Source: a virus (taxonomy: Duplodnaviria > Caudoviricetes). From it: a stretch of 64,000 nucleotides of DNA. A program made the translations under genes and the position numbers. The DNA lies in IMG/VR virus record IMGVR_UViG_3300037067_013742, positions 96,001-160,000 of that record. One strand, written 5' to 3'. The notes under the pieces are model-generated. The model was not told the DNA's origin, searched no databases, and saw only the letters and a list, made by a program, of their open reading frames with translations. Positions within the stretch are counted from its first letter, which is position 1, and each line of letters starts with the position of its first letter. Shown here piece by piece: positions 41,509-60,076 of the stretch.

Positions 41509-41512
41509 TCTA

Positions 41513-41905: not shown

Positions 41906-41954
41906 ATCTCCCTTTTATAGTAAACTTACAATTAGTTTAAACACGAGGTAAGCT

Positions 41955-43082
41955 TTGTACCTTAAGAATGGCGTGTGGGTTAAAGGTCCTCCTCCAAAGA
42001 GTGTATCTACTAGTGGCCCAAAGGTTACTACTCATCAGGCGCAAAGAACAGCTGTTGTTTCGTCTCCTAGAAGGCTAGATGCTCTTTTAAGGGGCAGAGC
42101 TCGGATTTGTATTAATCGTTCGCTCGGCGGATTGGGAGACATAATTATGGCCACCCCTATTGCGAGGGGCATTAAGAGGAAGCATCCAGAGAGCCACGTA
42201 ACTTATGCAGTGCCTACTGACTATGCTGGTGGGGATCTCTTAGATCTACTTCTTTATAACCCATATATAGATGAGATCATAGATTATAAGATTGTTAGTC
42301 GTGATGACTATGATGCCTTTGCAGATATAACCAGAGCTGGTCTGGCCGAAGAAGTTCGCGCGGCAAAAAATAGAGTTGTTCCTAAGAATAGGATTGATCT
42401 CTTCTCTGAAGAGTCTGGCTTTCCTCTTTACGGAATGACTCGTCCTATTTACGTTATGCTCGAAGAAGAGAGAGCCTGGGGCAAAGATTTTGCAGCAAAA
42501 CAAGTTGCTGGCAAAAAACCAAGGGGACTAATTGCAGTCCATCTTCGGTCTAACGACCCCAAGAGGACTTGGCCAAAAGATCGTGTCAGAGAATTTCTGA
42601 CACTATGTGCAAAGCACAACTACCATACATTTCTATTTGGCTGGGGTGATAATGCCGATGAATGGAGAATAAGTGGAACCACGCTTGTCTTCAACTATAA
42701 GATTAGGCAGGCCGCTGCTATTTTAGATGCTTGTGATCTTCTTGTTTGTCCCGACAGCTCGATGCTCCATCTCGCTGGAGCGTTAAATAAAAGAATAGTT
42801 TCTCTGTTTGGGTCAATGCCACCAGCCTGTAGAATCAATCATTACCCCAACGCCATTGCGGTAGTAAACCAAAAGCTATCTTGTCTTGGCTGTCTCTATG
42901 AACCTTGTCACCAAAATTTCTACTGTATGTCTAGTCTCTTACCAGAGGCCGTTCTTTCTGCCGTAGAGATGCAGCTGAAGCAAGACATAAGACAGCCTAA
43001 TTTGCCAGAGAGTATAGTTGTAAACTCTTCTAGCTTCGAGCAGGATATCTTAGGCACAGAAATAAAGTCTTTCGAAATCTAG
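41955..43082 (+). CDS. GT9-family (heptosyltransferase-like) glycosyltransferase
   Basis: GGLGDIIMATP and DLLVCPDSSMLHLAGALNKRIVSLFG. Confidence 0.9.
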   Translation: MYLKNGVWVKGPPPKSVSTSGPKVTTHQAQRTAVVSSPRRLDALLRGRARICINRSLGGLGDIIMATPIARGIKRKHPESHVTYAVPTDYAGGDLLDLLLYNPYIDEIIDYKIVSRDDYDAFADITRAGLAEEVRAAKNRVVPKNRIDLFSEESGFPLYGMTRPIYVMLEEERAWGKDFAAKQVAGKKPRGLIAVHLRSNDPKRTWPKDRVREFLTLCAKHNYHTFLFGWGDNADEWRISGTTLVFNYKIRQAAAILDACDLLVCPDSSMLHLAGALNKRIVSLFGSMPPACRINHYPNAIAVVNQKLSCLGCLYEPCHQNFYCMSSLLPEAVLSAVEMQLKQDIRQPNLPESIVVNSSSFEQDILGTEIKSFEI

Positions 43083-43086
43083 AAAG

Positions 43087-43104
43087 TGTTATTATTTTCA
43101 CATG
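43087..43104 (+). promoter_or_regulatory. Extended -10 (TG-T-TATTAT) 6 nt before ATG; leaderless-type
   Basis: TATTAT 43090-43095, ATG 43102, no SD. Confidence 0.5.
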
Positions 43105-45603
43105 CAAAATAGCGCTCTCTTTCCATTAAAAGTTTTGTGGACTGGAGCGGTTCCAGATCTTAGTGGGTATGGTTCGGCTTCTAGGGAATATGTTCGGTCT
43201 TTAGATGCTGTTGGCGTTGATGTTGCGGTAGACGCAAAAAGTTTTGAGCCATGGAAATCTAACCTATTAGTTGAACAGATTTTAGATCGCAGGATGTACT
43301 CTCTTATGGCAAAGGATAAGGGAGCCCCCATCCATGTAATACATCTTACTCCCGAGAACTATCCTCCTTATGCTTCTAACAATAAAGCTCGGATTGGTTA
43401 TTATGCTTGGGAAACATCTAAACTTCCAAAGAGTTGGGTTGCTGCAATAGCCAAAACCGTACAGGAAGTCTGGGTTCCCTGCCAATACTTGGCCGACGTT
43501 TCTATTAACTCTGGCGTTACCTGTCCAGTTGTTGTAGTTCCTCACGCAATCCCTCTTCCACCAGAGGGCTGGGTACCCAAGAGTAAGATTAAGGTTCCCG
43601 AGGAAAAGTTTAAGTTTTACTCAATCTTCCAGTGGAGTGAGAGAAAATGTCCTCAAGCTATACTAAGAGCTTACTATGAGGAGTTCTCCCGAGAGGAAAA
43701 TGTTTGTCTTGTCCTAAAGACCTATAGACGCGGTGGAGATGTACGGGAAAGAGATATCGTTCGAAATGAGATTGCCAAGATTAAGAGGGAGATAAAGGGC
43801 CCGGCCTGTCCTCCAGTCGTGCTGATTGAAGAGATGCTTGGTATGTCTGAAGTTTACTCTATCCATTATCACTGTGACTGTTACGTAAGTATGGCTCGCT
43901 CAGAAGGCTTTTGCTGGGTGCCAGATACCCTTGTTGATACATTTGTCGGAATGAAACCTATCAAGAACGTGGAAAAGGGGGATACCGTCCTCTCCCATAC
44001 CGGAGTTCCGAGAGAAGTTTCTGGCTTGACTACTCGTGAGTATTCTGGTGACCTTATACAGTTTAGGGCCTATGGAAATAACATTCCGTATCTTGGGACT
44101 CCCAATCATTTGCATTTCTTTGCTAAGAGGAATGGTCGTAGATGGGATAGCCTTAATGCTAAGAATGTCCTTCCTTCTTGGAGGCCTCTATCAGAGTTAG
44201 AGAGCGGCGATTTTGTTGCTATCCCTCGGCTGAGGTCTACTAGTTTCCCGGCTACCAATGAGATAGATGTTCTTTCTAAAATTACCTCTACTGAATGTAG
44301 AGAAATTCAATTTCATAGTGATGGTCGGTTTTCGCTTAAGGGAAGCTATAAGCAAGAAGAAGGGGCTGTTACTTTACAAGTTGTTGCCAATCATTGTGGT
44401 TGTAGTTTCCAGACTGTTTCTCGGGCATTGCAAGAGACCGAGTCTAGTTGCCCGACTTATGAAGGGGCAAGAAATATGGCCAAAGAGCTGAGCTATATTT
44501 GCGGTCAACCAATGTCAGCTTCTCAGAAAATTTGGTTGGACGATGAGGTCGGTGAATTCTTTGGCCTTTATTTAGCCGAGGGTTGTAGATGTAACGGTTT
44601 TATAGAGTTTGCATCTCACGAAGAAGAGGGTTGGGCAAGAGAGTTAGAGGCGAGGCTTTCTACTAAACTCTTCGGTTCGACAGTTAAAAGTACGAGGCGT
44701 AGTAGGTCGGGCTGGCAGACGACAGCAACCGGAAAAATTATATCCGAGTTCTTTGGTAATTATTTCGGTGGGAAGTGTCAAGAGAAGCATATTCCGATTG
44801 AGCTATGGACCTCACCATGTATTAAGGGGTTAATCCGCGGCCTGTTTTATGGAGATGGACACCAGTGTAAAAAGTCGGGGCGATTCTCTTTTAACTCATC
44901 TTCATCTCGTCTTGCTCTAGATATACGTCTTATTCTTCTAATGAATGGGATCGTGACTCGTCTCGATGTAAGAAGGGCTGATGTAAAGAGGCCAAGTGAT
45001 AACTACACAATTCAGATCGCGGCTGAGCATTCCCGACGTTTTTGGGATCTCTTTGCTCCGAAGAAGTACTATGTTCTTACTGAGCCGTTAGGCACTAATC
45101 GGTGTTCTAATATTCTAGAGTCTCCAGAATATTTTTTGGTTCCTGTTAGGGAAGTATCCAGGACTTTTTATAGGGGCCCAGTCTATAACCTTCATGTCGA
45201 TACTGATGAAAGTTATACCGTTTCCGGTATCGCCACTCATAACTGTATCCCTGTTTTTGAAGCAGCCGCTATGGGGAAGCCAGTTATAGTACCTAACTAC
45301 TCTGCTTTTCCAGAACACTTTAATGATTGGAATAGCTATCTAGTCGATGTGCCCAACGAAATATCTGTTGGTAATATGTCTCATATATCTCCCTTATATA
45401 CTGGAGATATGCTTTGGGGCGACCCATCTATTCCTTCTTGCCGGCAAAAGATGCGAGAAGTATTTGGCAATCAAGAAGCTGCCAAAGAAAAGGGTAGACT
45501 AGCTAAAGAGTACGTTAAAGAATATCTAAACTATGAGGCGATTGGGAGGATAATGAAAGGTCGTCTCGAGAGTATTTATCGTGGAATGATTGGAGAGAAG
45601 TAA
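43102..45603 (+). CDS. GT4-family glycosyltransferase with an intein
   Basis: SGYGSASR, YYAWET, FYSIFQWSERK; the spliced motif SEGF|CIPVFEAAAMGKPVI is the E-x7-E signature. Confidence 0.9.
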   Translation: MQNSALFPLKVLWTGAVPDLSGYGSASREYVRSLDAVGVDVAVDAKSFEPWKSNLLVEQILDRRMYSLMAKDKGAPIHVIHLTPENYPPYASNNKARIGYYAWETSKLPKSWVAAIAKTVQEVWVPCQYLADVSINSGVTCPVVVVPHAIPLPPEGWVPKSKIKVPEEKFKFYSIFQWSERKCPQAILRAYYEEFSREENVCLVLKTYRRGGDVRERDIVRNEIAKIKREIKGPACPPVVLIEEMLGMSEVYSIHYHCDCYVSMARSEGFCWVPDTLVDTFVGMKPIKNVEKGDTVLSHTGVPREVSGLTTREYSGDLIQFRAYGNNIPYLGTPNHLHFFAKRNGRRWDSLNAKNVLPSWRPLSELESGDFVAIPRLRSTSFPATNEIDVLSKITSTECREIQFHSDGRFSLKGSYKQEEGAVTLQVVANHCGCSFQTVSRALQETESSCPTYEGARNMAKELSYICGQPMSASQKIWLDDEVGEFFGLYLAEGCRCNGFIEFASHEEEGWARELEARLSTKLFGSTVKSTRRSRSGWQTTATGKIISEFFGNYFGGKCQEKHIPIELWTSPCIKGLIRGLFYGDGHQCKKSGRFSFNSSSSRLALDIRLILLMNGIVTRLDVRRADVKRPSDNYTIQIAAEHSRRFWDLFAPKKYYVLTEPLGTNRCSNILESPEYFLVPVREVSRTFYRGPVYNLHVDTDESYTVSGIATHNCIPVFEAAAMGKPVIVPNYSAFPEHFNDWNSYLVDVPNEISVGNMSHISPLYTGDMLWGDPSIPSCRQKMREVFGNQEAAKEKGRLAKEYVKEYLNYEAIGRIMKGRLESIYRGMIGEK
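43912..45243 (+). mobile_element. Intein with LAGLIDADG endonuclease and LacI-like HTH insert (444 aa)
   Basis: CWVPDTLV, GTPNH, FFGLYLAEG, LIRGLFYGDG, VYNLHV and ATHN followed by +1 Cys. Confidence 0.94.
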
Positions 45604-45604
45604 T

Positions 45605-46261
45605 ATGGCATATAGCCTAGATACTAAACAAGTAGAAGAGATAAAAGCCCTAAGAATATCTGGAGAGACTTATGCTTCTATAGCCAAAAAGTTTGGCGTT
45701 ACTTTTCAGCATATAGAGGCAATCTGTTCTGGCCGGAGAAAGAAGCTAAGTGTATCAGTAGATCTTCCTGGCGAAGACTGGAGACTAATTAGTTCAATTC
45801 CAGTTTTGCTTGCTAGTAACCTAGGTCGAATAAAGAGGATTGAGACTGGAAGGGTGCTTAAGATTAGAGTAGATCCTCATGGGTATAATACTGTTAGTTT
45901 CTCTTTTGAGTCTAAGAAAAGATTAAAGCTTGTTCACCGACTAATAGCCGAAGCCTGGTTAGGTTCTTGTCCCAGTGAGAAACAAGTTAATCATAAGGAT
46001 GGAAACAAGAGTAATAACACACCACAAAACCTTGAGTACCTCTTTCCAGGAGAGAATGATCTTCATGCTTATAGAACTGGCCTTAAAGATGCCAAAGGCG
46101 AAAAGAATGGTAGAGCAAAACTAACTGAGGAGGTTATTAAGAAGATCAGGGCTCTTGCTTCTAATGGGGATCACTATAGCCAGATTGCTGGGTCTTTTGG
46201 GATTACACCATCCCACTGTCATGCAATCATTACTAAGAAGTGCTGGCGTCATGTGGTATAA
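45605..46261 (+). CDS. Free-standing NUMOD4-HNH homing endonuclease with flanking HTH repeats
   Basis: EDWRLI...ASNLGRIK, VHRLIAEAW...VNHKDGNKSNNTPQNLEY and GEKNGRAKLTEE...W.HV; start probably ATG 45605. Confidence 0.88.
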   Translation: MAYSLDTKQVEEIKALRISGETYASIAKKFGVTFQHIEAICSGRRKKLSVSVDLPGEDWRLISSIPVLLASNLGRIKRIETGRVLKIRVDPHGYNTVSFSFESKKRLKLVHRLIAEAWLGSCPSEKQVNHKDGNKSNNTPQNLEYLFPGENDLHAYRTGLKDAKGEKNGRAKLTEEVIKKIRALASNGDHYSQIAGSFGITPSHCHAIITKKCWRHVV

Positions 46262-46262
46262 T
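46254..46262 (+). promoter_or_regulatory. Consensus extended -10 TGGTATAAT overlapping the HNH stop codon
   Basis: TG-G-TATAAT ends 21 nt upstream of ATG 46284. Confidence 0.5.
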
Positions 46263-46283
46263 GTCATCAACGGTTAAAAGACA

Positions 46284-47321
46284 ATGAAAATCCTATACTT
46301 GAGCGCACATTCTATTTTGGAGTATGATGAGGTTAAATTACTTCACGAATTGGGTCACCAGGTCTTCTCTCCCGGTGCTTATGTAGAGCCTGCTAACCCT
46401 GGTGATGCTTCTCTTCGACCCTCCATCTCTGGTCTTGTATATGATCCAGAGATTCTTCGGCAGTATCATTTACTTGGAGCTGCCTTTCCCGGACAGGATG
46501 GAAAGGACCATCTCTCTAAATCTTTTGTAGATAACTTTGACGTTGTTGTTGTTATGCATATGCCTCGATGGATTGAGAATAACTGGGAGGCGATGAAACA
46601 CAAAAAAGTCATCTGGAGAACTATCGGTCAGTCGGTTGCTTCTGTAGAGCAGAATATGAAGAAGTATGTAGACCAGGGACTCGTTGTTCTTCGCTATTCT
46701 CCTAACGAGGCAAACATTCCTCACTTCTGTGGGCAGCATGGCCTTATCAGATTCGGTAAAGATCCAGAGGTTTATAAGGGCTGGACTGGCGAGAAACAGT
46801 TTGTAATTAACTTTACCCAAAGTATGCAACAGCGAGGTACTGCTTGTGGGTATAAGATCTTTGATGAGGTAACTAAAATCTTTCCGAGGAAGTTGTTCGG
46901 ACCAGAAAACAATCAGCCTGGTTTTGGTATGGGTAAAGTTAGCTTTGAACAACAGGTGGAAGAGCTACAGAAGAACAGATGTTATTTTTATACTGGGACT
47001 CATCCAGCTTCTTATACTCTTAATTATATAGAAGCGGCAATGACTGGAATTCCAGTGGTAGCTATTGGTCCCCAAAATGGAAATGCCGAGTATTGGCGAA
47101 ATCACAATTTATATGAGGTACATAATCTTATCCAAGATGGAGTGAATGGCTTTGTATCTGATGATCCTAATATTCTAAGAAAGAGAGTAAGGGACCTACT
47201 AGCCGACAAGGCTTTGGCCGACAGGGTATCAGAGGCGGGTCGAAAAGAGGCGATAAAGCATTTTGGAGTAGATATGATCCGTGCTGCTTGGGGAGACTTC
47301 CTAAAGAGGGTAGTAGGATGA
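46284..47321 (+). CDS. GT-B (GT4-like) glycosyltransferase
   Basis: MKILYL start; YTLNYIEAAMTGIPVV; IQDGVNGFVSDD. Confidence 0.85.
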   Translation: MKILYLSAHSILEYDEVKLLHELGHQVFSPGAYVEPANPGDASLRPSISGLVYDPEILRQYHLLGAAFPGQDGKDHLSKSFVDNFDVVVVMHMPRWIENNWEAMKHKKVIWRTIGQSVASVEQNMKKYVDQGLVVLRYSPNEANIPHFCGQHGLIRFGKDPEVYKGWTGEKQFVINFTQSMQQRGTACGYKIFDEVTKIFPRKLFGPENNQPGFGMGKVSFEQQVEELQKNRCYFYTGTHPASYTLNYIEAAMTGIPVVAIGPQNGNAEYWRNHNLYEVHNLIQDGVNGFVSDDPNILRKRVRDLLADKALADRVSEAGRKEAIKHFGVDMIRAAWGDFLKRVVG

Positions 47322-48025
47322 AAGATTTAGTCTATACAGATAAGGGCTCTAAGAATTGGCTATTTGAGAAGTATTACTTTGGTGGACAGAACTATAGATA
47401 CTTTACATTTCAATTAGCCCTAAACCTTCTAAAGCAGAGGCATCCAAATCCAATAATCATCGAGACTGGCTGTCAGCGAATGAAGGATGATCTTGGGGCA
47501 GGGATGTCTACCTCGATCTGGGGAGAATACTGTCAACGATATGGGGGTCATCTGACTTCAGTAGATATCTCTGGACAGAACCTAACGGTATGTAAGGAAT
47601 GCACCGCACAATACGCTGGTCTTATTACATATATCCAAAGTGACTCTATTGCTTTTCTCTCTGGCAAGAGAGGAGCTGCCGATCTCCTATATCTAGATAG
47701 TCTAGATTATGACTATGGTGGTCTTCTGAATATCTATGGTGGGGCAGCCGATATAAATGCGGCCATCAAAGCTGTTGACGCAATTCCTCAAGACGAGCTT
47801 CTAAAGAAGCACTCCAATATTATCCTTCCTGCTCAGCAGCATTGTCTCAGTGAACTAAAAGCAGCTGAGAAGTCAGGGATTATAAAGGCAGATACAATCC
47901 TAATGATTGATGATAATCAGCTTCCTGGAGGTGGAAAGTCTAGATTAGTTAAGGACTATCTAGCAAGTACGGGGTGGACTTGTCTGCTTGATCACCAGCA
48001 GACCTTGTGGGTTAGGAAGCTATAG
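47318..48025 (+). CDS. Class I SAM-dependent methyltransferase (Methyltransf_24-like); start probably ATG 47318
   Basis: IIETGC, LTSVDI, SDSIAFL, DLLYLDS and LMIDD; ATGA overlap. Confidence 0.75.
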   Translation: MKDLVYTDKGSKNWLFEKYYFGGQNYRYFTFQLALNLLKQRHPNPIIIETGCQRMKDDLGAGMSTSIWGEYCQRYGGHLTSVDISGQNLTVCKECTAQYAGLITYIQSDSIAFLSGKRGAADLLYLDSLDYDYGGLLNIYGGAADINAAIKAVDAIPQDELLKKHSNIILPAQQHCLSELKAAEKSGIIKADTILMIDDNQLPGGGKSRLVKDYLASTGWTCLLDHQQTLWVRKL

Positions 48026-48046
48026 AGTTTAGGAGTGGAGTTAATA

Positions 48047-49045: not shown

Positions 49046-49052
49046 GAGCAGA

Positions 49053-50177: not shown

Positions 50178-50186
50178 GAGTTTTAT

Positions 50187-53099: not shown

Positions 53100-53113
53100 A
53101 GAGCTAAGGTAAT

Positions 53114-54163
53114 ATGAGGGTACTAGCCGATTTACATCATGCAGACCTTTATTATTCTCTACAACTTCTTTTTGAGAGGAGGCTAGGAGCGGAGCTTTAT
53201 CGTCCGATTGGGCTAGAGTGGTATACAGAAGGTTTCTGGAATGTTTTTCCTCATCCGGATACAGCGGGTCAGTATCTGGGGCTCAATCAGGCAATCGACA
53301 TCCCGAAGGATGTTCGTGGGGATCCTCTTCCTAAAGGGGCTAGAGTAAATGAAGAGTATCGTTTTGAGGATGGTATTTACTACGTAACAGACGTTACTAA
53401 AGGAAAGATACAAAGAGCCATAACTCTAGAAAAGTTTAGGAGTATGGAATTTGATATCGTTCTGTCCTCGATGCCTGTACATATAGAGCCCTTTAATCGT
53501 TTAATTGCACAGTCTCAGCCTAAAGCAAAGCACATATTTCAGGTTGGTAACGCCTGGGGTCATCAGCCAGGAGTAAAGAATATTTTGGCATCTACTGCGC
53601 CCTTTGTCGTTCCAAATGGGGTAAATGTTTGTTTCTATCATCAGGAGTTTGATCTAGACGTTTGGAGGTACGACCCTCCAACTAATCATAATGTTGTATA
53701 TAGCTGGGTTCACTGGATGCAAAGAAAGGATCTAATGAGTTCCTTTGCCTCCAAACTTCCCGGGTGGACCTTTCGGTCTTTTGGTGCTGGACTAGAAGAT
53801 CACGTTATGGAGACCCATAAGCAGGCGGAAAAGATGAGGGAGTCTGGTTGGACTTGGCATTACAAACCAGAAGGTGATGGTTACGGATATGCTCCTCATC
53901 GGGCCTGTGCGACCGGTCGTCCTCTTGTCGTCTGGGGAGATTTCTACAAAGGAAAATTGGCTGGTCGGCTAATGGAAGACCTCGTTACTTGTATTGATAT
54001 AAGCCGTCGTACAACCGATGAGAGCATTAAAATTCTTGGAAGGCTTTCTAATCCAGAAGAACATATCAGAATAGCAGAGGCAGCATACAAGAAGTTTAGG
54101 CAGGTAGTCGACTTCGATAAAGAATTTGTGGACATCAAAAGGTTTTTAGAAAATTTAAGGTAG
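53114..54163 (+). CDS. GT-B fold glycosyltransferase-like protein
   Basis: DGYGYAPHRACATGRPLV is a variant of the GT4 EgFG...EA.a.G.Pv motif. Confidence 0.65.
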   Translation: MRVLADLHHADLYYSLQLLFERRLGAELYRPIGLEWYTEGFWNVFPHPDTAGQYLGLNQAIDIPKDVRGDPLPKGARVNEEYRFEDGIYYVTDVTKGKIQRAITLEKFRSMEFDIVLSSMPVHIEPFNRLIAQSQPKAKHIFQVGNAWGHQPGVKNILASTAPFVVPNGVNVCFYHQEFDLDVWRYDPPTNHNVVYSWVHWMQRKDLMSSFASKLPGWTFRSFGAGLEDHVMETHKQAEKMRESGWTWHYKPEGDGYGYAPHRACATGRPLVVWGDFYKGKLAGRLMEDLVTCIDISRRTTDESIKILGRLSNPEEHIRIAEAAYKKFRQVVDFDKEFVDIKRFLENLR

Positions 54164-54165
54164 CT

Positions 54166-54939
54166 ATGTCCGATCGGTTCAAGCAAGTACTAGAGGCTTA
54201 TAATAAGAAGCAAGTCTTCTGTGACTATGCTCCTCTTCACGTTTATATAGAACCAACCAATAAGTGTAACTTAAACTGTTTTCATTGTACTAATGGCCAG
54301 CCTAATGGTCGCCTAAAGGGATTTATGGACCTTGATCTCTACGAGAATATTGTTCGGCAATGTAGGGATCTTAACATTGAGTGGGTATACCTTTTCTTTA
54401 TCGGGGAGTCGCTTTTACATCCTAAGATAAACGAAATGATCTCTTTTGCGCGCGGGCATGGGATAAAAGTTAGGCTTCATACAAATGGGACAATACCAAA
54501 GGTAACGGGTGTTCTTGTCGACGACCTTCATATTTCTATAAATAGTACTGACTTCAGTTATATTCAGAGGAATGTTGATCGTTTAATAGAGTTAGACAAA
54601 CCCTTTGTCTTAGAGTCGATTGATGGTATTTCGCCACCCGTAGAGAGCAGGTATGCTGGATATATTAGTCATAAGGAATATCTGAACTTTTACTTGCCGG
54701 AAAACAACAGGAATGGCTCTACTTCTTTTAGTATGGTTTGTAGTCACCCATATAAATCTCTTGCTATTGGATGGGATGGAGCCTGTGCGCCCTGTTGTGT
54801 CGATGCAGATATAAAGTTTTCTATTGGGAGGCTTCCAGAAGAATCACTTCTTGATATCTGGAATAGTCCACACATGCAAGAAATTAGAAGTCATCCCGTT
54901 GGTATCTGTAATGGCTGTAATATCAAGCGGCTGCCTTAG
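54166..54939 (+). CDS. Radical SAM protein with SPASM/twitch domain
   Basis: CNLNCFHC (CxxxCxxC), GESLLHP, TNG, CSHPY...GACAPCCVD...IG...SLLDIWNS...CNGC. Confidence 0.92.
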   Translation: MSDRFKQVLEAYNKKQVFCDYAPLHVYIEPTNKCNLNCFHCTNGQPNGRLKGFMDLDLYENIVRQCRDLNIEWVYLFFIGESLLHPKINEMISFARGHGIKVRLHTNGTIPKVTGVLVDDLHISINSTDFSYIQRNVDRLIELDKPFVLESIDGISPPVESRYAGYISHKEYLNFYLPENNRNGSTSFSMVCSHPYKSLAIGWDGACAPCCVDADIKFSIGRLPEESLLDIWNSPHMQEIRSHPVGICNGCNIKRLP

Positions 54940-54968
54940 TCTGCTATCGTTCTCTCAAGGAGCTTATT

Positions 54969-55700
54969 ATGTCTATCGAGGAACAACATCTCGAGAAGAT
55001 TGCTAAAAGGTTTAGTTCTAAAGATGGGTACAATGCCCATATGTCCGATTTTGCCTATAGGACAATCAGACCATTTTTCCAAGGTAGGACTTGCCTGGAA
55101 CTTGGGTCTAGTGATGGACAGATGACCCCAAAGCTACTACTAGACTTTGAAACAGTTGTTGCTGTTGATGGGAGTAATACCCAGATTAAAAGACTAAGAG
55201 AATTTCATCAAGAGGAGATATCTCTAGAGCGCTTAGTGACTTATGTATCTCTAATCGAAAACCTACCGGATGTTCTTCCCACTCAAAGTAGGTTTGATAC
55301 TATTGTTGCTACTTATCTTCTAGAGCACGTTGATAATCCAGTTCAAACTCTTTCTACTGCAAGAAAGTTTCTGGAGAGGAATGGGGTTCTTATTGTTGTA
55401 GTCCCTAATGCTAATTCTATTCATCGGATAGTTGGTCAATATATGGGTGTTCTGGAAAGCAGGACAGACCTGTCAGAACAAGATCATCACGATGGTCATC
55501 GTCGAACATATACAACCGAATCTTTGATGGCTGATTTTCACCGAGCTGGACTAGTCGTTATTCGTACTGGTGGTATTTTGCTTAAGCCGCTACCAGCTTC
55601 TCAGATGGAAGTGCTTCCTCGTAATGTTGAAGAGGGCTTCTTTAAAGCCGGTCAAGAATTTCCTAGCTTCTGTTCTTCTATTTTTGTGGTAGGCCAATGA
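54969..55700 (+). CDS. Class I SAM-dependent methyltransferase
   Basis: CLELGSSDG, FDTIVATYLLEHVDNP, VVVPNA and HRRTYT. Confidence 0.88.
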   Translation: MSIEEQHLEKIAKRFSSKDGYNAHMSDFAYRTIRPFFQGRTCLELGSSDGQMTPKLLLDFETVVAVDGSNTQIKRLREFHQEEISLERLVTYVSLIENLPDVLPTQSRFDTIVATYLLEHVDNPVQTLSTARKFLERNGVLIVVVPNANSIHRIVGQYMGVLESRTDLSEQDHHDGHRRTYTTESLMADFHRAGLVVIRTGGILLKPLPASQMEVLPRNVEEGFFKAGQEFPSFCSSIFVVGQ

Positions 55701-57025
55701 AGAGAATTCTTATCGTTCCTGCTGGGACAGATAATGGATACGAGGTTTGGGAGTCTTTGAAGGGACGATATGAAGTCTTCTGTGCTGATGCTCTAGAAGA
55801 TAATCCAACTTCCATCGTCTCCGGACGACACGTTCAGATGCCAATGGGGTTTGGTTCAGACTTCTGGCAAGAGTTATCTTCTGCCTGTAGTCGTCTTGAT
55901 ATAGACCTAGTAATTCCTACTCACGATGGCTTACTAGTTCCGTTAGCTGAGATGGGAAAGGTTGGAGGAGCCAAGGTTTTAACCTCTCCTCCAGAAGCTT
56001 GTCGCGTAACCTTTAGGAAAGACACAACATATTCTTTTCTTCAGGCGAATGGGTTATGGGATATATGTCCATTTCTTGCGGATAGGTTTCCCGCCTTTCT
56101 TCGGCCGAATAATGGTCGGGGCTCTAGGAGTGCCTTTAAAGTAGATGATAAGAAAACCTTAGATCTTTTAGAACAGTTAGTACCAGATAGTATTGTTACA
56201 GAATATCTACCCGGTAAGGAATATACGGTAGATTGTCTCTCTGACCTTAACGGAGAGCTTCTTGGTCACTGCATAAGGGAGAGAGTCTATATTTCTAATG
56301 GCGTTACAAAGATTGGCGTGACGGTAGATAACCAGTCTATTTCTAGTATGGCTGAGAAGATATCGAGTTGCCTCAAGACTTCTGGTCCCTGGTTCTTCCA
56401 GGCTAAGGAAGATAGTGGTGGAATTCCTAAGCTAACAGAGATCAATCTTCGCGTTGGAGGTACCTCTGGGCTATCTAGGATCGCTGGATTTAATCATATG
56501 CTTCTTGCTACTAGGATGTATCTTGGAGAGCCTATAAGCGCAATAGAGCCACCACAAATAGGTGTCGTGGTAAGTCGTGGTCCTATACTTCATACTCACT
56601 TTGATGCTAGGTATATAAGGTTGGTTCTATGGGATCTTGACGACACTATATGGACTGGTGAGCTATCTAAGAATTATCGTACTCCACAAATTATCTCGGA
56701 GGTTGCAGCAACTATAGCTATCCTTGCAACTAAGGGAGTTTTTATGGGGATAGTTACTAGTAACAAGTTGCTTAGAGAAAGTGGTACTTACTCTGTCACA
56801 TCTTTTCTTAGACAGTCCGGAATCCACTTTCCATTTAGCCCAATTCTCTTTTCTCCTGATGGTAAGGCTTCTGCCATTAGTTCCTTTCTGGAAAACTCTA
56901 GCTTTGTTCCTGGTGAGGTGGTGCTAGTAGATGATTCTTTTAAAGAAAGGGAGTGTGTTACTAAGGACTTGAGAATTAGAGTTTTAGACCCAACTCTCCA
57001 TTACCTGCTAAGAGATATAAAATGA
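55697..57025 (+). CDS. ATP-grasp ligase fused to an FkbH/MDP-1-like HAD domain
   Basis: GRGSR, EYLPGKEYTVD and TEINLRVGG (ATP-grasp); LVLWDLDDTIW and LVDDSFKERE (HAD). Confidence 0.8.
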   Translation: MKRILIVPAGTDNGYEVWESLKGRYEVFCADALEDNPTSIVSGRHVQMPMGFGSDFWQELSSACSRLDIDLVIPTHDGLLVPLAEMGKVGGAKVLTSPPEACRVTFRKDTTYSFLQANGLWDICPFLADRFPAFLRPNNGRGSRSAFKVDDKKTLDLLEQLVPDSIVTEYLPGKEYTVDCLSDLNGELLGHCIRERVYISNGVTKIGVTVDNQSISSMAEKISSCLKTSGPWFFQAKEDSGGIPKLTEINLRVGGTSGLSRIAGFNHMLLATRMYLGEPISAIEPPQIGVVVSRGPILHTHFDARYIRLVLWDLDDTIWTGELSKNYRTPQIISEVAATIAILATKGVFMGIVTSNKLLRESGTYSVTSFLRQSGIHFPFSPILFSPDGKASAISSFLENSSFVPGEVVLVDDSFKERECVTKDLRIRVLDPTLHYLLRDIK

Positions 57026-57684
57026 TATTAGATCTTTCTGAAATAGAATATGTTAACTTTAACGAGAGAGACGTTGAGGTTCCTGCTCTCCTATCATTTT
57101 TATCTAAGGTTGGAGAGATTTCATCTATCTTAGATGTTGGCGGAAACTATTCATGGTACACATATGCTTCAAAGGTTAGGCACTTTCTACCTAAAACGGA
57201 GTATACAGTCGTTGATCTTCTACCCGACACAGAGACCGAGAAGCTTGTTGATAGATTTGTGGTTGGAGAAGCAGAGCCACTTCTAGAAGTAAACAAGTTT
57301 GACGTAGTCTTTTCTATTTCTGTTCTTGAACACGTTGGTATAAAACCTTTACGAAGTGAGAATCCTGTACAAGATAGAATGAACTTAGTTACTTCTATTT
57401 GTCTTGCTTCAGAGAAAGGTGTCTTTCTTAGTTTCCCATTTGGAGAAGAGGGGGAATATCCTGGTCAGTATGCGAATGTTACATATGAAGAACTGCTAGA
57501 TATTGGTCAGTTCGCGAACAGAGCAGAGTTCCTCTTCTCTACCCAATTCTTTTTTAATCCATTTCCTCAGGGCCGGGAGCTTTGGTCTGAGATAAAAGTA
57601 GATGAGGCCTCAAGGATCAAACTTAATGAGAAACTTGGTGTTCAATGTGTGTGTCTCGCCACACTTGTAAGACCTGGAAAGTAG
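57022..57684 (+). CDS. Methyltransferase-fold protein (DUF268-like)
   Basis: ERDVEVP, ILDVGG, FDVVFSISVLEHVG and LSFPFG. Confidence 0.7.
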   Translation: MILDLSEIEYVNFNERDVEVPALLSFLSKVGEISSILDVGGNYSWYTYASKVRHFLPKTEYTVVDLLPDTETEKLVDRFVVGEAEPLLEVNKFDVVFSISVLEHVGIKPLRSENPVQDRMNLVTSICLASEKGVFLSFPFGEEGEYPGQYANVTYEELLDIGQFANRAEFLFSTQFFFNPFPQGRELWSEIKVDEASRIKLNEKLGVQCVCLATLVRPGK

Positions 57685-57686
57685 GG

Positions 57687-57702
57687 TATAATTAACGGCA
57701 TG
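57687..57702 (+). promoter_or_regulatory. TATAAT 7 nt before ATG; leaderless-type
   Basis: TATAAT 57687-57692, ATG 57700. Confidence 0.5.
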
Positions 57703-58071
57703 GCACGACTAAAAAAGAACTATCAGGCTAATGTTTCTAGAGATTACGCCCCCCTCTACTGTATCTGTATTGGTGGTAGGTGTGATCTAGTTCAGAATGG
57801 GCTCGGAGTCGATCTGAGCAAGTTATCGAAGGATAAAATTCCTCTCTTAGAGGGCACCGAACCTAACGTCGTATTTTTGACAGATATTCCAAAGCAAGTC
57901 CCAAACTTAATGTTTGTTAAGGTTGTCGTTTTCTATACTTCTAGGTCTCCTGAAGATCTTGTTAAGTTTTGTCGGGAGAATCTGAACGGTATTTTTGTAG
58001 ACTCTGCTAGGCTTTCCACTGAACCAGAACTCGTTGCTACTGAGATTCGAGAATACCTGGAACAGAAGTAA
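57700..58071 (+). CDS. Hypothetical protein
   Basis: ORF with an upstream TATAAT and TAATG coupling to the next gene. Confidence 0.5.
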   Translation: MARLKKNYQANVSRDYAPLYCICIGGRCDLVQNGLGVDLSKLSKDKIPLLEGTEPNVVFLTDIPKQVPNLMFVKVVVFYTSRSPEDLVKFCRENLNGIFVDSARLSTEPELVATEIREYLEQK

Positions 58072-58862
58072 TGCCTACCTCTGGTCTTCTTTTCATCCTC
58101 TATTATAGGGCGGGGTCTCATCTTCTTCTAAAATGTTTGGCTGGAAGACCTGGTAACGAACTTATTGATGGAATCAGTGGGGTATATGCTCCCTCCAACC
58201 TTTTAGTGACCGGGCCAAAGATTACAATTCAACATCTTATAGGAGATGTCCGAGATCTAGACCCCAAACCAAATCCCTCCCAATGTAGATATGTTTACGT
58301 GGCTGATTGGTGGGGTGGAGTATCAACTCATCATCAAGTTCCAGACCCTTATGATGGGGAGACGCTTTCGAGATGGGGATACGAGGAGCTAAGGCCACTC
58401 TTAGATAATTGGAAGGTTGTCTATCTTCTCAGAGATCCTAGAAGTCATATCGAGTCTCTTAGATGTACCACTGGTGAGAAAAAGAATCCCTACCAGGTTA
58501 GAGATTCGTTGGACTATTTCACTTACCAGTGTAAGGCTGCAAGAAATCGAATGCGGGTTGCTCTCGACTCAGTAGCTTCTTCAAGTAACGTCATTACGCT
58601 TAAGTCCGAAGAGCTGATCTCTTGCCCTTCTCGCTTCTTCTCTCAGTTAGTAGCTTTTTCTGGGATGTCTTTGGATGTAAAGGCTATCTTAGAAACCCAT
58701 AAAGCAGATACTCTTACCGCTGCCGGAGACTTTCATAGCACATTTAAGTCTGTTTCTGGATATGAGAATCGTTGGAGTAATTGGACATCTGAAGAGATTT
58801 CAATCTTTAACGATACTGCAGGAGCAGAGGCTAGAGAGCTCGGGTACTCCCGCCTCGCCTGA
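58071..58862 (+). CDS. Sulfotransferase-like (P-loop) protein
   Basis: YRAGSHLL (5'-PSB-like), KVVYLLRDPRSHIES (3'-PB), KSEELISCP and C-terminal NRW...ELGY. Confidence 0.65.
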   Translation: MPTSGLLFILYYRAGSHLLLKCLAGRPGNELIDGISGVYAPSNLLVTGPKITIQHLIGDVRDLDPKPNPSQCRYVYVADWWGGVSTHHQVPDPYDGETLSRWGYEELRPLLDNWKVVYLLRDPRSHIESLRCTTGEKKNPYQVRDSLDYFTYQCKAARNRMRVALDSVASSSNVITLKSEELISCPSRFFSQLVAFSGMSLDVKAILETHKADTLTAAGDFHSTFKSVSGYENRWSNWTSEEISIFNDTAGAEARELGYSRLA

Positions 58863-58877
58863 TATAATCCCAGTATG
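58863..58877 (+). promoter_or_regulatory. TATAAT 6 nt before the gmd ATG; leaderless-type
   Basis: TATAAT 58863-58868, ATG 58875. Confidence 0.5.
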
Positions 58878-59855
58878 AATCAAATAGCTATTGTTAGCGG
58901 CTTAACGGGGATGGATGGCAGCTATCTTGCCGATCTTCTTATTGAAAAAGGATATAAGGTCTATGGGATCGTAAGACGGTCGTCTCGTGGGAACGACCTC
59001 GGCTGTTCTAAACACTTGGCAAATAATCCCAATCTTGAAGTTGTAGAAGGCGATATCACCGATCTCTCTTCCTTAGCTCGGATAGTTGCTCTAGTGCATC
59101 CAGCTCTCTATTTTAATTGCGCGGCGCAATCTCACGTCCAAATCTCTTTTAACGAGCCCGTACATACGGCAATGGCTACTGGGATTGGGTGTCTTAATGG
59201 ACTAGAAGCTATTAGGCTTTCTGGCGTCCATACAAGATTCTTACAATGCTCATCATCTGAACTTTATGGTGGCGTCTCTCCGGAGCCAGCAAACGAGGAG
59301 ACTCCATTTCATCCGAGAAGTCCTTATGCTTGCGCAAAACTCTTTGCCCATTCTTCTGTAGTTCTATACCGAGAGGCCTATAACTTTTTCGCCTGTACTA
59401 CCATATGCTTTAATCATGAGGGTCCTCGACGTGGGCCTGCGTTCGTAACACGAAAGATTACTTTAGCCGTAGCCAGGATCAAACATGGCTTTCAGAAGGA
59501 GCTCTTCTTAGGAAATCTAGATGCTAAGCGTGACTGGGGCTCTTCGAAAGACTATACAGAGGGAATGTATTTAGCCCTTACTTATAAAGAGCCGACAGAC
59601 TTTGTTTTGGCGACTGGAGAGACTCATTCTGTTCGGGAGTTTTGTGAGGCTGCTTTCTCTCATGTTGGACTAGACTACAAAGATTACGTAAAGGTAGATC
59701 CAAAGTTCTATCGTCCGGCAGAAGTAAACGTTCTTCTCGGAGATGCTTCTAAAGCTAAGAAGCTACTTGGCTGGGAACCAAAGACTAAATTTGCTGAGCT
59801 TGCTAGAGAGATGGTAGATAATGATATGCAGTTGGTTGGCGAAAATAAGATCTAA
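58875..59855 (+). CDS. gmd: GDP-mannose 4,6-dehydratase
   Basis: GLTGMDGSYLA, AAQSHVQISF, SSSELYG, PRSPYACAK, FNHEGPRRG and LGNLDAKRDWG. Confidence 0.95.
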   Translation: MNQIAIVSGLTGMDGSYLADLLIEKGYKVYGIVRRSSRGNDLGCSKHLANNPNLEVVEGDITDLSSLARIVALVHPALYFNCAAQSHVQISFNEPVHTAMATGIGCLNGLEAIRLSGVHTRFLQCSSSELYGGVSPEPANEETPFHPRSPYACAKLFAHSSVVLYREAYNFFACTTICFNHEGPRRGPAFVTRKITLAVARIKHGFQKELFLGNLDAKRDWGSSKDYTEGMYLALTYKEPTDFVLATGETHSVREFCEAAFSHVGLDYKDYVKVDPKFYRPAEVNVLLGDASKAKKLLGWEPKTKFAELAREMVDNDMQLVGENKI

Positions 59856-60076
59856 AGTAGCTGATCGTACATTTCTTGTAGCTGAGTAATCTGAGATTCT
59901 AACGTATCCATCCTAGTAATTAAGGCTGCTCTATTCTGCTGGTTGACTATGGTTAGCCTATTCATCTGTTCTTTGTTAATGGCATTCCTTAAAAGCTGAA
60001 GAATAGAGGTCATTGCCCTCTCTATCTTTAAGAGTCTAAGCTCAGTATTTGCAGTGAAGGTAGGATCGATTGCCAC
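59852..60076 (-). CDS. Small coiled-coil protein
   Basis: Heptad pattern LITRMDTLESQITQLQEMYDQL; coupled to the upstream - strand gene. Confidence 0.55.
   Translation of the reverse strand: MAIDPTFTANTELRLLKIERAMTSILQLLRNAINKEQMNRLTIVNQQNRAALITRMDTLESQITQLQEMYDQLL

What the first reader, a model, noticed from the sequence alone, without database searches (positions are those of the whole stretch)
41955..59855. Self-contained ~18-kb glycan synthesis/decoration cluster next to the virion module, with no export machinery
Seen: six glycosyltransferase-like genes (GT9, GT4 with intein, two more GT-B, two GT-A), RmlB-like and Gmd 4,6-dehydratases, a DegT aminotransferase, four methyltransferase folds, radical SAM/SPASM, ATP-grasp-HAD and a sulfotransferase-like gene. 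All are co-oriented directly after the fibre genes. I see no Wzx/Wzy/ABC transporter, priming phosphoglycosyltransferase or obvious TM protein. Established: O-antigen and capsule loci need membrane export. Virion glycosylation is known in some mycobacteriophages and giant viruses. Inference: the acceptor is cytoplasmic and phage-made, most plausibly virion proteins receiving a complex methylated, aminated and possibly sulfated glycan. DNA hypermodification or host-envelope remodelling are alternatives.
Basis: partly seen in the sequence, partly recalled or inferred. Interest (0 to 1): 0.85.

Follow-up and report, generated by a model that had tools for sequence, protein, structure and literature searches.

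The report
Export-free glycan gene cluster in jumbo phage
A 229-kb uncultured phage carries 18 genes behind its tail-fibre genes that build a methylated, amino-sugar-containing glycan with no export parts; its core genes recur beside capsid or fibre genes in many uncultured phages, so it most likely sugar-coats the virus particle, though this is untested.

Summary
Window 41955-59855 contains 18 tightly packed, co-oriented genes at the end of a 95-kb structural-gene block in a complete 229-kb phage. They are GT9, an intein-split GT4, two more GT-B enzymes, one clear and one weak GT-A, two 4,6-dehydratases, a DegT aminotransferase, about five methyltransferase folds, a BtrN-like radical SAM enzyme, an ATP-grasp-HAD fusion, a weak sulfotransferase, an HNH homing endonuclease and one unknown gene.

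The whole genome has no priming transferase, no sugar nucleotidyltransferase and no protein with more than three hydrophobic segments. The cluster is not an assembly artefact.

New result: a core set (GT4, methyltransferase, GT4, GT-A, GT-B) travels in fixed order through more than 100 uncultured-phage contigs, but O4 and O11 found nothing among 50,697 GenBank phage records. The core follows the fibre genes in three distant jumbo relatives. In one large siphovirus clade it sits between the capsid and head-tail adaptor genes, and its presence tracks a Gly-Ser-Pro capsid motif.

One lineage places the core among replication genes, and this phage shows no acceptor motif.

Best reading, at 0.5: virion protein glycosylation. 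Rivals are host-envelope remodelling, a soluble glycan and DNA glycosylation.

The scan has noted similar capsid-linked cassettes on other DNA, but none with these sequences.

The parts
41955..43082 (+). O1, GT9 (heptosyltransferase-like) glycosyltransferase
   Evidence: Pfam PF01075 at 57 bits, cut-off 22. NCBIfam WaaC/WaaF models score far below their cut-offs. Best PDB hits are 3tov and 1psw; TibC was not found. Homologs sit in the same place in G007, G008 and G009.
43102..45603 (+). O2, GT4 glycosyltransferase interrupted by a class-1 LAGLIDADG intein (43912-45243) inside the E-x7-E motif
   Evidence: Hint, LAGLIDADG and intein C-terminal hits. Junctions are SEGF|C and HN|C. Homologs elsewhere lack the insert, with residues 9-270 and 716-827 contiguous, and they hit Glycos_transf_1 above the cut-off.
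45590..46261 (+). O3, free-standing HNH/NUMOD4 homing endonuclease
   Evidence: Pfam HNH_3 and NUMOD4. A variant in run X2 lacks it, with a joint from 45609 to 46311.
46284..47321 (+). O4, GT-B (GT4/CgeB-like) glycosyltransferase, a core gene
   Evidence: Weak PF00534 hit. Found in 47 of 56 O11-anchored loci at 35-61% identity. No match in GenBank phages.
47288..48025 (+). O5, Methyltransf_24-like methyltransferase fold, an optional core gene
   Evidence: No Pfam hit. The family alignment A4 matches the MT24 family A5 by hhalign at 97% probability. Present in 10 loci between O2 and O4.
48035..49045 (+). O6, NDP-hexose 4,6-dehydratase (dTDP-glucose type)
   Evidence: TIGR01181 at 266 bits, cut-off 365. 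PDB 8du1 at 2e-56. TDE at residue 137 and YAACK at residue 162.
49035..50177 (+). O7, DegT-family keto-sugar aminotransferase
   Evidence: Pfam at 355 bits. Closest structures are TlmJ, ArnB, QdtB and perosamine synthase.
50187..50891 (+). O8, probable class-I methyltransferase (weak)
   Evidence: Methyltransf_31 and Methyltransf_11 at E 5e-4 and 3e-3. A homolog is present in L006.
50884..52077 (+). O9, possible GT-A glycosyltransferase (weak)
   Evidence: Atlas features score 0.95 to GT2-like clusters. The family has 36 clusters, and 6 of 27 members hit GT2 at E of 0.013 or worse. It has a DHD motif, but hhalign to the O10 family gives only 4%.
52074..53099 (+). O10, GT-A glycosyltransferase, a core gene
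   Evidence: AF2 model with pLDDT 94.6. Foldseek hits TarP, TarS and BcsA at about 1e-8. E90 and D92 of the E-D-D motif are conserved (D92 invariant, E90 in at least 90% of rows). Present in 24 loci.
53114..54163 (+). O11, GT-B glycosyltransferase, the most conserved core gene
   Evidence: 438 relatives, with the 120 best hits at 48-88% identity, nearly all full length. AF2 model with pLDDT 92.6. Foldseek hits BshA, MshA, HepE, ManT and SdgB. BFVD neighbours are giant-virus GT1 and CgeB-like proteins. No match in GenBank phages.
54166..54939 (+). O12, small radical SAM/SPASM enzyme, BtrN-like
   Evidence: Pfam Radical_SAM plus SPASM. The best PDB hit is BtrN at 3e-7, of similar length. CX3CX2C at residues 34-41 and a C-terminal Cys cluster.
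54969..55700 (+). O13, class-I SAM methyltransferase
   Evidence: Methyltransf_23 at 62 bits.
55697..57025 (+). O14, ATP-grasp ligase fused to a HAD-IIIC phosphatase-like domain
   Evidence: ATPgrasp_Ter at 75 bits. HAD-IIIC at E 1.5e-4. DLDDT and VDDS motifs.
57022..57684 (+). O15, possible methyltransferase (weak)
   Evidence: Methyltransf_11 at E 4e-3. A homolog is present in L023.
57700..58071 (+). O16, 123-aa protein of unknown function
   Evidence: No hit in Pfam or NCBIfam.
58071..58862 (+). O17, sulfotransferase-like protein (weak)
   Evidence: Sulfotransfer_3 at E 5e-5, below the cut-off. The N-terminal RAGSH resembles a PAPS 5'-phosphosulfate-binding loop. Homologs are present in L005, L006 and L030. 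The bacterial islands carry a sulfotransferase and an APS kinase.
58875..59855 (+). O18, GDP-mannose 4,6-dehydratase (Gmd)
   Evidence: PF16363 at 381 bits. TIGR01472 at 395 bits, cut-off 415. Homologs at 52-62% identity in jumbo relatives.

Best explanation
The cluster is a phage-encoded glycan-assembly line that works in the cytoplasm and most likely decorates phage-made virion proteins late in infection.

The host supplies the activated precursors: GDP-mannose, a dTDP- or UDP-hexose, probably ADP-heptose, SAM and PAPS. The phage has no nucleotidyltransferase of its own.

Proposed steps:
1. Gmd (O18) and the RmlB-like enzyme (O6) make NDP-4-keto-6-deoxyhexoses.
2. The DegT enzyme (O7) converts at least one of these to a 4-amino-4,6-dideoxy sugar.
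3. The BtrN-like radical SAM enzyme (O12), the ATP-grasp-HAD fusion (O14), the methyltransferases (O5, O8, O13, O15) and the sulfotransferase-like protein (O17) oxidise, acylate, methylate and perhaps sulfate sugars.
4. Six glycosyltransferases (O1, O2, O4, O9, O10, O11) assemble the chain on the acceptor.

Shown: the enzyme families, their solubility, the lack of any export or priming gene in the genome, operon-like packing with the fibre genes, and the conserved linkage of the core (O2, O5 or MT24, O4, O10, O11) to virion genes in several phage lineages.

Inferred: the pathway order, the sugars, late expression and the protein acceptor.
For: - The cluster ends a 95-kb + strand block of head, tail, baseplate and fibre genes. 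Its gaps are 49 nt or less, so there is little room for a separate promoter.
- The order baseplate, fibre-like genes, GT9, O2... is kept in G008 (a complete 188.6-kb genome with direct terminal repeats), G007 and G009, at only 24-36% protein identity.
- Among 56 O11-anchored IMG/VR loci, the core O2-[O5]-O4-[MT24]-[O10]-[F6]-O11 keeps one order.
- In 19 of those loci, and in 67 of 71 decidable capsid-anchored loci, the core starts directly after the major capsid gene and is followed by the head-tail adaptor, tail tube and tape-measure genes.
- A third lineage places the core after a different capsid family, phrog_1357.
- All 67 capsid proteins with the core keep a [STVA]-G-S-P loop, and 58 of them end in E-S-x. 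All 4 without the core lack both.
- Every lineage pairs the GT trio with a sugar O-methyltransferase type: Methyltransf_24, FkbM or CmcI-like.
- No priming transferase, polytopic membrane protein or nucleotidyltransferase is present in the genome.
- Precedent 1: Corndog carries an O-methyltransferase and three GTs inside its head-gene block (PMC4351075), and mycobacteriophage virions are glycosylated (Freeman 2023, as cited in PMC12363180 and PMC12619734).
- Precedent 2: Megavirinae carry glycan clusters of 6 to 33 genes for their fibrils (PMC10117803).
- Inteins in O2 here, and intein-like in-frame inserts in the O4, O11 and Gmd homologs of G008 and the Gmd homolog of G009, point to conserved, important genes.
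Against: - No glycan has been seen, and there are no expression data.
- This phage's 50 structural-block proteins show no enriched Ser/Thr motif, no Ser/Thr runs, and neither the GSP nor the C-terminal ES-x signal.
- In seven loci (L036, L044, L047, L049-L051, L058) the trio lies between the DNA polymerase and a UvsX-like recombinase, that is, inside a replication module.
- In jumbo relatives the cluster is followed directly by exonuclease and primase-helicase genes.
- The capsid-motif covariation rests on about three independent core-less relatives, which are also among the more divergent ones.
- The GT folds found match protein-, lipid-, small-molecule- and DNA-directed enzymes alike.
- GT9 together with GT4 is the make-up of LPS-core pathways, which also lack exporters.
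Confidence: 0.5

Rival explanations
1. Host-envelope remodelling. The soluble or peripheral phage GTs act at the cytoplasmic face of the membrane on a host lipid-linked or lipid A-core acceptor, and host flippases, ligases or transporters carry the altered glycan to the surface. The effect could be to block superinfection or to stop progeny being lost on cell debris.
For: GT9 and GT4 are the enzyme types of LPS inner- and outer-core synthesis. Those enzymes have no transmembrane helices and their operons have no exporter (established knowledge; GT9 hit). O10 is most like the wall-teichoic-acid glycosyltransferases TarP and TarS. Bacterial copies of the core sit in ordinary chromosomal islands of Cohnella and Paenibacillus, together with ManC, a sulfotransferase and an APS kinase.
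Against: The phage has no priming transferase, flippase or ligase of its own. The position between the capsid and adaptor genes, or behind the fibre genes in one transcription direction, suggests late expression, when remodelling the surface of a cell about to lyse is of little use. The core also occurs in bacteria without LPS (Paenibacillaceae) and in phage-like contigs binned with Saccharibacteria, so LPS core cannot be the general acceptor. The capsid motif covaries with the core.
Confidence: 0.2
2. Soluble product. The cluster makes a free cytoplasmic methylated oligo- or polysaccharide, like mycobacterial methylmannose polysaccharide, or a small glycoside of aminoglycoside or nucleoside type that acts on the host or on competitors. 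It would not be attached to any virion part.
For: O11's Foldseek neighbours include the methylmannose-polysaccharide mannosyltransferase 7qsg, BshA and MshA, which act on small-molecule or soluble acceptors. GT4 plus O-methyltransferases plus a GDP-mannose supply is the make-up of the export-free MMP pathway (own knowledge, not checked in a paper here). The best solved relative of O12 is BtrN, and O7 resembles inosose aminotransferases of aminoglycoside pathways. The ATP-grasp domain is of the Ter type, which is linked to nucleoside-like metabolites (Pfam name).
Against: This reading does not explain the repeated placement next to capsid or fibre genes, or the capsid-motif covariation. No phage is known to make such a product. 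The BtrN match covers only the radical SAM core (residues 26-98).
Confidence: 0.12
3. DNA hypermodification. The GTs attach a glycan to a modified base in phage DNA to evade restriction.
For: Seven loci place the trio between the DNA polymerase and recombinase genes, and in jumbo relatives the cluster abuts the primase-helicase gene. O11 aligns with T4 alpha-glucosyltransferase at E 3e-7. Phage DNA GTs related to LPS enzymes add hexose, HexNAc or heptose, and some such clusters lie near structural genes (bioRxiv 10.1101/2023.12.21.572611).
Against: The known routes to a glycosylatable base lack detectable parts. No thymidylate-synthase-type hydroxymethylase was found in G000, G004, G006 or G008, and no C5 DNA methyltransferase in G000, G004, G006, G007 or G008, with positive controls in both cases. 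There was no Tet_JBP hit either, but that search had no positive control. Constant O-methyltransferases, amino-sugar tailoring and a sulfotransferase are not known features of DNA glycans. Bacterial chromosomal copies come with ManC and APS kinase. The capsid motif covaries with the core.
Confidence: 0.1
4. Artefact. The cluster is host chromosomal DNA or a chimeric assembly joined to phage DNA.
For: Many of the genes have their closest relatives in bacterial glycan pathways.
Against: GC and skew are flat across the junctions. Contigs from two studies bridge 41.9 kb, and one 154.9-kb contig spans the whole stretch with no differences. The same gene order is found in three related phage genomes. 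Inteins and a homing endonuclease typical of this phage lie inside the cluster.
Confidence: 0.01

Closest known systems
Mycobacteriophage virion glycosylation (Che8, Corndog, Myrna; Freeman et al. 2023, known here only through PMC12363180 and PMC12619734; Corndog cassette described in PMC4351075)
   Same: Both use soluble phage-encoded GTs without export genes. Corndog places an O-methyltransferase and three GTs inside its head-gene block, much as the core sits here. In the mycobacteriophages, glycans are attached to the capsid and tail tube.
   Different: There is no detectable sequence relation: O4 and O11 find nothing in 50,697 phage records. This cluster has 18 genes and its own nucleotide-sugar tailoring (two dehydratases, an aminotransferase, a radical SAM enzyme, an ATP-grasp, a sulfotransferase-like protein), against 2 to 4 genes in the mycobacteriophages. 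The host is unknown and the samples are from groundwater and landfill. No glycan has been shown.
Giant-virus autonomous glycosylation clusters (Megavirinae fibril glycans, 6 to 33 genes, PMC10117803; Mimivirus polysaccharides, PMC8456856)
   Same: Both are virus-encoded clusters that combine a 4,6-dehydratase, an aminotransferase, methyl- or acyl-transfer and several GTs. Both make rare bacterial-type amino sugars in the cytoplasm for the particle surface, and the content varies by clade around a common theme. O11's nearest viral folds are giant-virus GT1 and CgeB-like proteins.
   Different: Those are eukaryotic viruses and the clusters are not shown to be homologous. Here a small core is conserved while the tailoring genes O12-O16 had no match in any of the 56 O11-anchored loci.
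LPS core (waa) biosynthesis enzymes WaaC, WaaF and WaaG
   Same: GT9 and GT4 folds, soluble or peripheral enzymes, and no exporter within the gene set.
   Different: O1 scores far below every heptosyltransferase equivalog cut-off, 46 bits against 185. The core occurs in LPS-free Paenibacillaceae. No Kdo transferase or ligase was seen.
Bacillus spore-surface glycosylation (CgeB/YkvP-type GTs and the sps genes); own knowledge, not checked in a paper here
   Same: Export-free glycosylation of a protein shell that assembles inside a cytoplasm. O11 relatives carry PF13524, the CgeB-type domain. Bacterial copies of the core are in spore-forming Cohnella and Paenibacillus.
   Different: No link of those islands to sporulation was tested. 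Only 4 of 301 sampled genomes of that family carry O11.
Phage DNA glycosylation (T4 alpha/beta-GT; the 5hmC-GT clusters of Pyle et al., bioRxiv 10.1101/2023.12.21.572611)
   Same: GT-B enzymes related to LPS or teichoic-acid GTs, heptose among the possible sugars, and some clusters located near structural genes.
   Different: No hydroxymethylase and no C5 methyltransferase were found; a TET-like enzyme was not found either, but that search had no positive control. Methyl, amino and sulfo tailoring is unlike known DNA glycans.

Membership tests
Phage virion-protein glycosylation system (mycobacteriophage type) | Phage-encoded soluble glycosyltransferases with no export or priming genes | tested here: met
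Phage virion-protein glycosylation system (mycobacteriophage type) | GT and methyltransferase genes embedded in or joined to the virion structural operon, as in Corndog gp35-38 | tested here: met
   The window cluster ends the structural block. The same holds in G007, G008 and G009. The core lies between capsid and adaptor genes in 67 of 71 decidable loci. Exception: one lineage has it in a replication module.
Phage virion-protein glycosylation system (mycobacteriophage type) | Glycan shown on capsid or tail proteins by mass spectrometry or staining | not testable with these tools
   The phage is uncultured and no proteomic data are held.
Phage virion-protein glycosylation system (mycobacteriophage type) | Sequence homology to the Che8, Corndog or Myrna glycosyltransferases | tested here: not met
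   tblastn of O11, O4 and O9 against 50,697 phage records found no match.
Phage virion-protein glycosylation system (mycobacteriophage type) | Recognisable acceptor site on virion proteins | tested here: inconclusive
   GSP-loop and C-terminal ES-x covariation was found in the siphovirus clade. Nothing was found in this phage.
Wzx/Wzy- or ABC-dependent O-antigen or capsule locus | Priming phosphoglycosyltransferase (Bac_transf or WecA/MraY type) | tested here: not met
   PF02397 and PF00953 are absent from the 229-kb genome, with positive controls.
Wzx/Wzy- or ABC-dependent O-antigen or capsule locus | Flippase, polymerase or ABC permease (polytopic membrane proteins) | tested here: not met
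   No ORF has more than 3 hydrophobic 19-mers by the crude hydropathy method.
LPS-core (waa) type pathway | A true LPS heptosyltransferase (WaaC, WaaF or WaaQ equivalog) | tested here: not met
   The best equivalog score is 46 bits against a cut-off of 185. Only the general GT9 Pfam domain is met.
Phage DNA glycosylation cluster | An enzyme that creates the hydroxymethyl base: a TS-type dNMP hydroxymethylase, or a C5 methyltransferase plus a TET-like oxygenase | tested here: not met
   PF00303 and PF00145 are absent from the complete genomes G000, G004, G006 and G008. PF12851 is also absent, but that search had no positive control.
Virus-encoded autonomous glycan cluster (Megavirinae-like logic) | Clustered nucleotide-sugar tailoring enzymes (4,6-dehydratase and aminotransferase) together with several GTs and methyltransferases in a viral genome | tested here: met
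   Compare PMC10117803.
Class-1 intein (within O2) | Cys1, a C-terminal His-Asn, a +1 Cys, a homing-endonuclease domain, and a host gene that is contiguous in relatives | tested here: met

The most novel reading that the evidence does not exclude
The five-part core (GT4, Methyltransf_24-type methyltransferase, GT4/CgeB-like GT, GT-A, and the O11 GT-B) may be a widespread and so far undescribed virion-glycosylation module of uncultured phages. It would be shared by jumbo myoviruses and by a large siphovirus clade of roughly 40-kb contigs, and would write a methylated glycan onto a Ser in a conserved capsid Gly-Ser-Pro loop and/or the C-terminal Glu-Ser. The jumbo phages would then add lineage-specific amino-, acyl- and sulfo-sugar tailoring, as giant viruses do. 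The Cohnella and Paenibacillus islands would be the cellular counterpart, glycosylating a cytoplasmically assembled protein layer.
Probability: 0.4. Interest if true: 0.78.

Novelty: new variant of a known kind. Interest (0 to 1): 0.63.

Why it matters
Phage self-glycosylation has been shown only for a few mycobacteriophages. If this core module does the same job, sugar-coated virions are common among uncultured phages of groundwater and other habitats, and some jumbo phages rival giant viruses in glycan complexity.

This would bear on phage stability, on recognition by hosts and grazers, and on immune recognition in therapy.

The work also yields concrete tests: a defined gene set, a candidate acceptor Ser in a neighbouring capsid protein, and cultivable bacteria (Cohnella luojiensis, Paenibacillus alkaliterrae) that carry the same core.

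Tried and rejected
- Near-DNA search of the cluster in GenBank phages found no match.
- O9, O11 and O4 searched as proteins in GenBank phages found no match.
- O9 in IMG/VR by pattern scan found no relative. GT9 found only three distant loci.
- Motif search in this phage: di- and tripeptide enrichment and Ser/Thr runs in 50 structural-block proteins against 248 others showed nothing convincing. The GSP and C-terminal ES-x signals are not present here.
- GT9 against protein heptosyltransferases: TibC-type chains did not appear in the PDB search at E up to 1, so there is no support for a BAHT-like protein heptosyltransferase.
- O9 against the O10 family by hhalign gave 0.3% (single sequence) and 4% (profile), so homology is not shown. 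The PDB phmmer search of O9 found nothing.
- The Tet_JBP search had no positive control, so it is uninformative.
- No RNA holder was listed for this stretch, so expression could not be examined.
- The sigma-70 promoter and terminator scan was at or near shuffle level and is uninformative.
- A YTATAGTA word lies 35-40 nt upstream of both O1 and the fibre gene at 39476. Six of 25 genome copies lie within 70 nt upstream of a start, against 4.8% expected. This was found post hoc and is weak, so it is not used as evidence.

Full report
**Setting.** The window is bases 96001-160000 of a 229,064-bp IMG/VR virus record that CheckV rates as complete. The baseplate protein is about 30% identical to those of Bacillus phage 0305phi8-36 and related jumbo myoviruses. 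A simple ORF call gives 316 genes. Nearly all + strand genes form one 95-kb block (genome 60.5-155.9 kb) holding head, tail, baseplate and fibre-like genes. The finding covers the last 18 genes of that block. The next gene, on the opposite strand, converges on it at 59852-60076.

**Observation.**
- Strong assignments are GT9 (O1), an intein-split GT4 (O2), an RmlB-like 4,6-dehydratase with an intact TDE/YxxxK (O6), a DegT aminotransferase (O7), a radical SAM/SPASM enzyme (O12), a Methyltransf_23 enzyme (O13), an ATP-grasp_Ter plus HAD-IIIC fusion (O14) and Gmd (O18).
- Two genes with no Pfam hit were resolved by modelling. O11 is GT-B (pLDDT 92.6; BshA, MshA, HepE, methylmannose-polysaccharide ManT, SdgB). 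O10 is GT-A (pLDDT 94.6; TarP, TarS, BcsA), with a conserved E-D-D.
- O5 is a Methyltransf_24-like fold (hhalign 97%).
- O9 as GT-A, O8 and O15 as methyltransferases, and O17 as a sulfotransferase are only weakly supported.
- The O2 intein has canonical junctions (Cys1; His-Asn; Cys+1) and cuts the E-x7-E motif, so the enzyme needs splicing to be active. Relatives have the uninterrupted gene.

**No export machinery.** No cluster protein has a transmembrane-like segment. In the whole genome no ORF has more than three hydrophobic 19-mers. Bac_transf, Glycos_transf_4, NTP_transferase and GT2 families are absent, with positive controls in reference genomes. The phage therefore depends on the host for activated sugars, and for any export that might occur.

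**Not an artefact.**
- GC is 0.41-0.44 across the cluster, like the rest of the window. Only the fibre gene at 40-42 kb is richer, at 0.517.
- The stretch is held in runs from three studies, one groundwater and two landfill.
- One 154.9-kb contig covers 40500-60400 without a difference. A contig from another study bridges 40500-42284, and a 13.2-kb contig covers 46721-59878. Either of the first two runs may be the record's source, so at most one is independent.

**What travels with what.**
- O11 is unusually conserved. It has 438 relatives, and the 120 best hits are 48-88% identical, nearly all over the full length. Yet O11 and O4 find nothing among 50,697 GenBank phage records.
- Fifty-six IMG/VR loci were recovered with an O11 profile. 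O4 accompanies O11 in 47 of them, O2 (without the intein, often in two copies) in about 40, O10 in 24 and O5 in 10. The order is always O2-[O5]-O4-[Methyltransf_24 MT]-[O10]-[F6]-O11.
- The tailoring genes are patchy. Gmd, O17, O8, O9 and O7 occur only in a few jumbo relatives. O12, O13, O14 and O16 occur in none of the 56 loci.
- The picture is a conserved glycosyltransferase and O-methyltransferase core with a variable periphery.

**Context of the core, by lineage.**
1. *Jumbo relatives.* G008 (188.6 kb, direct terminal repeats, complete), G007 and G009 have homologs of the window's baseplate and fibre-like genes (18011 to 39440) at 24-36% identity, in the same order and direction, followed by GT9 and the core. 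In these phages an exonuclease and a primase-helicase follow downstream.
2. *A large siphovirus clade.* The order is minor capsid protein, scaffold, major capsid protein, O2, O2', O4, MT, O10, F6, O11, then head-tail adaptor, tail tube and tape measure. Anchoring on the capsid protein instead gave 79 loci. All 67 that carry the core have O2 starting directly after the capsid gene, and four loci lack the core.
3. *A third lineage* (L010, L018, L023). The core follows a different capsid family, phrog_1357.
4. *A fourth lineage* (L036, L044, L047, L049-L051, L058). The trio, with an FkbM methyltransferase, lies between a DNA polymerase and a UvsX-like recombinase. This is the main counter-observation.
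5. *Bacteria.* Cohnella luojiensis, a Cohnella MAG and Paenibacillus alkaliterrae carry GT2, GT4, a Gmd-like gene, ManC, O2, O2, GT4, MT24, F6, MT24, O11, a sulfotransferase, a second O11 and an APS kinase. Housekeeping genes flank this island, and again there is no exporter. Only 4 of 301 sampled genomes of that family have O11. Two phage-like contigs are binned with Saccharibacteria.

**A lead to the acceptor.** In the siphovirus clade, all 67 capsid proteins followed by the core keep a [STVA]-G-S-P loop, and 58 end in E-S-x. The four without the core lack both. These are L122 at 50% identity, which is inside the identity range of core-bearing capsids, L143, and the near-identical pair L146/L147. 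That amounts to few independent contrasts, so I treat it as a lead. It does echo the C-terminal glycan sites reported for mycobacteriophage capsid and tail-tube proteins (as cited in PMC12619734). The window phage shows no comparable signal.

**Mechanism.**
- Shown: the enzyme families.
- Inferred: Gmd and O6 make NDP-4-keto-6-deoxyhexoses from host GDP-mannose and a dTDP- or UDP-hexose. O7 aminates at least one of them; its nearest structures are TlmJ, ArnB, QdtB and perosamine synthase.
- Inferred: O12, whose best solved relative is the alcohol-oxidising radical SAM enzyme BtrN (similar length, E 3e-7), may create a further keto group. O14 may N-acylate the amino sugar. The methyltransferases and O17 cap the product.
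- Inferred: the six GTs build the chain. O-methyltransferases accompany the GT trio in every lineage, so a methylated glycan is the common product.

**Weighing the readings.**
- *Virion glycosylation (0.5).* It best explains the repeated, independent joining of the core to capsid or fibre genes in one transcription direction, the capsid-motif covariation and the lack of export genes. It has precedents in Corndog (an O-methyltransferase and three GTs inside the head-gene block, PMC4351075), in other mycobacteriophages (PMC12363180), and in giant viruses with clusters of 6 to 33 genes (PMC10117803).
- *Host-envelope remodelling (0.2).* It stays possible because GT9/GT4 pathways need no exporter of their own.
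- *A soluble methylated glycan or glycoside (0.12).* It fits some fold neighbours but not the synteny.
- *DNA glycosylation (0.1).* The replication-module lineage and published DNA-GT clusters near structural genes (bioRxiv 10.1101/2023.12.21.572611) suggest it. However, no hydroxymethylase and no C5 methyltransferase were found in G000, G004, G006 or G008; no TET-like enzyme was found in those genomes either, but that search had no positive control.

**Relation to earlier notes of this scan.** Several other windows yielded GT and methyltransferase cassettes between the capsid and adaptor genes. Those notes pointed me to the Cluster O paper and to the C-terminal serine idea.

**Verdict.** This is a real, well-delimited and unusually rich phage glycan cluster. 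It is a new variant of a known kind. Its interpretation as a virion-glycosylation system is the best-supported reading but is unproven.

Noticed in passing
window 45590-46261 (O3): The HNH/NUMOD4 homing-endonuclease gene is polymorphic. A landfill-metagenome contig joins 45609 to 46311, skipping 701 bases with 25 other letters between, and has many substitutions in the flanking O4 start. O3 is therefore a mobile free-standing endonuclease next to the intein-bearing O2.
   Followed up: partly
L011:3639-5549, L011:10001-12220, L011:12968-14977; L014:11065-13059: In the complete relative G008, the O4, O11 and Gmd homologs each carry an in-frame insertion of about 300-390 residues with intein-like junctions. 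G009 has one in Gmd at the same site. With the O2 intein here, mobile elements repeatedly target the glycan genes of this clade.
   Followed up: partly
L069-L147 (capsid genes of a siphovirus clade), e.g. L013:2729-3643: The capsid [STVA]-G-S-P loop and the C-terminal E-S-x are present in all 67 (motif) and 58 of 67 (C-terminus) capsids followed by the GT core. Both are absent in the 4 capsids without it (L122, L143, L146, L147).
   Followed up: partly
L064 and L068 (Cohnella luojiensis), L062, L065: These are chromosomal islands in spore-forming Paenibacillaceae with the same core plus ManC, a Gmd-like gene, a sulfotransferase and an APS kinase. Housekeeping genes flank the island and no exporter was seen. 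The distribution is sporadic, 4 of 301 sampled genomes.
   Followed up: partly
window 39476-41905: The 659-aa fibre-like gene (GC 0.517 against about 0.43 nearby) and the 134-aa ORF after it have no homolog in the three jumbo relatives, although their neighbours do. They are probably a swapped receptor-binding end.
   Followed up: partly
window 41915-41922 and 39441-39448: The word TTATAGTA lies 35-40 nt upstream of both the first glycan gene and the last fibre gene. Six of 25 genome copies of YTATAGTA lie within 70 nt upstream of a start codon, against about 5% expected. It is a possible phage promoter element.
   Followed up: partly
L036, L044, L047, L049-L051, L058: This phage lineage has the GT trio plus an FkbM methyltransferase between the DNA polymerase and UvsX-like recombinase genes. 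It is the one context that does not fit a virion link.
   Followed up: partly
L061, L063: These phage-like contigs carry the core and are binned in Candidatus Saccharibacteria MAGs. L063 is about 70-77% identical in protein to the siphovirus locus L032. This is a possible host hint for that clade.
   Followed up: no
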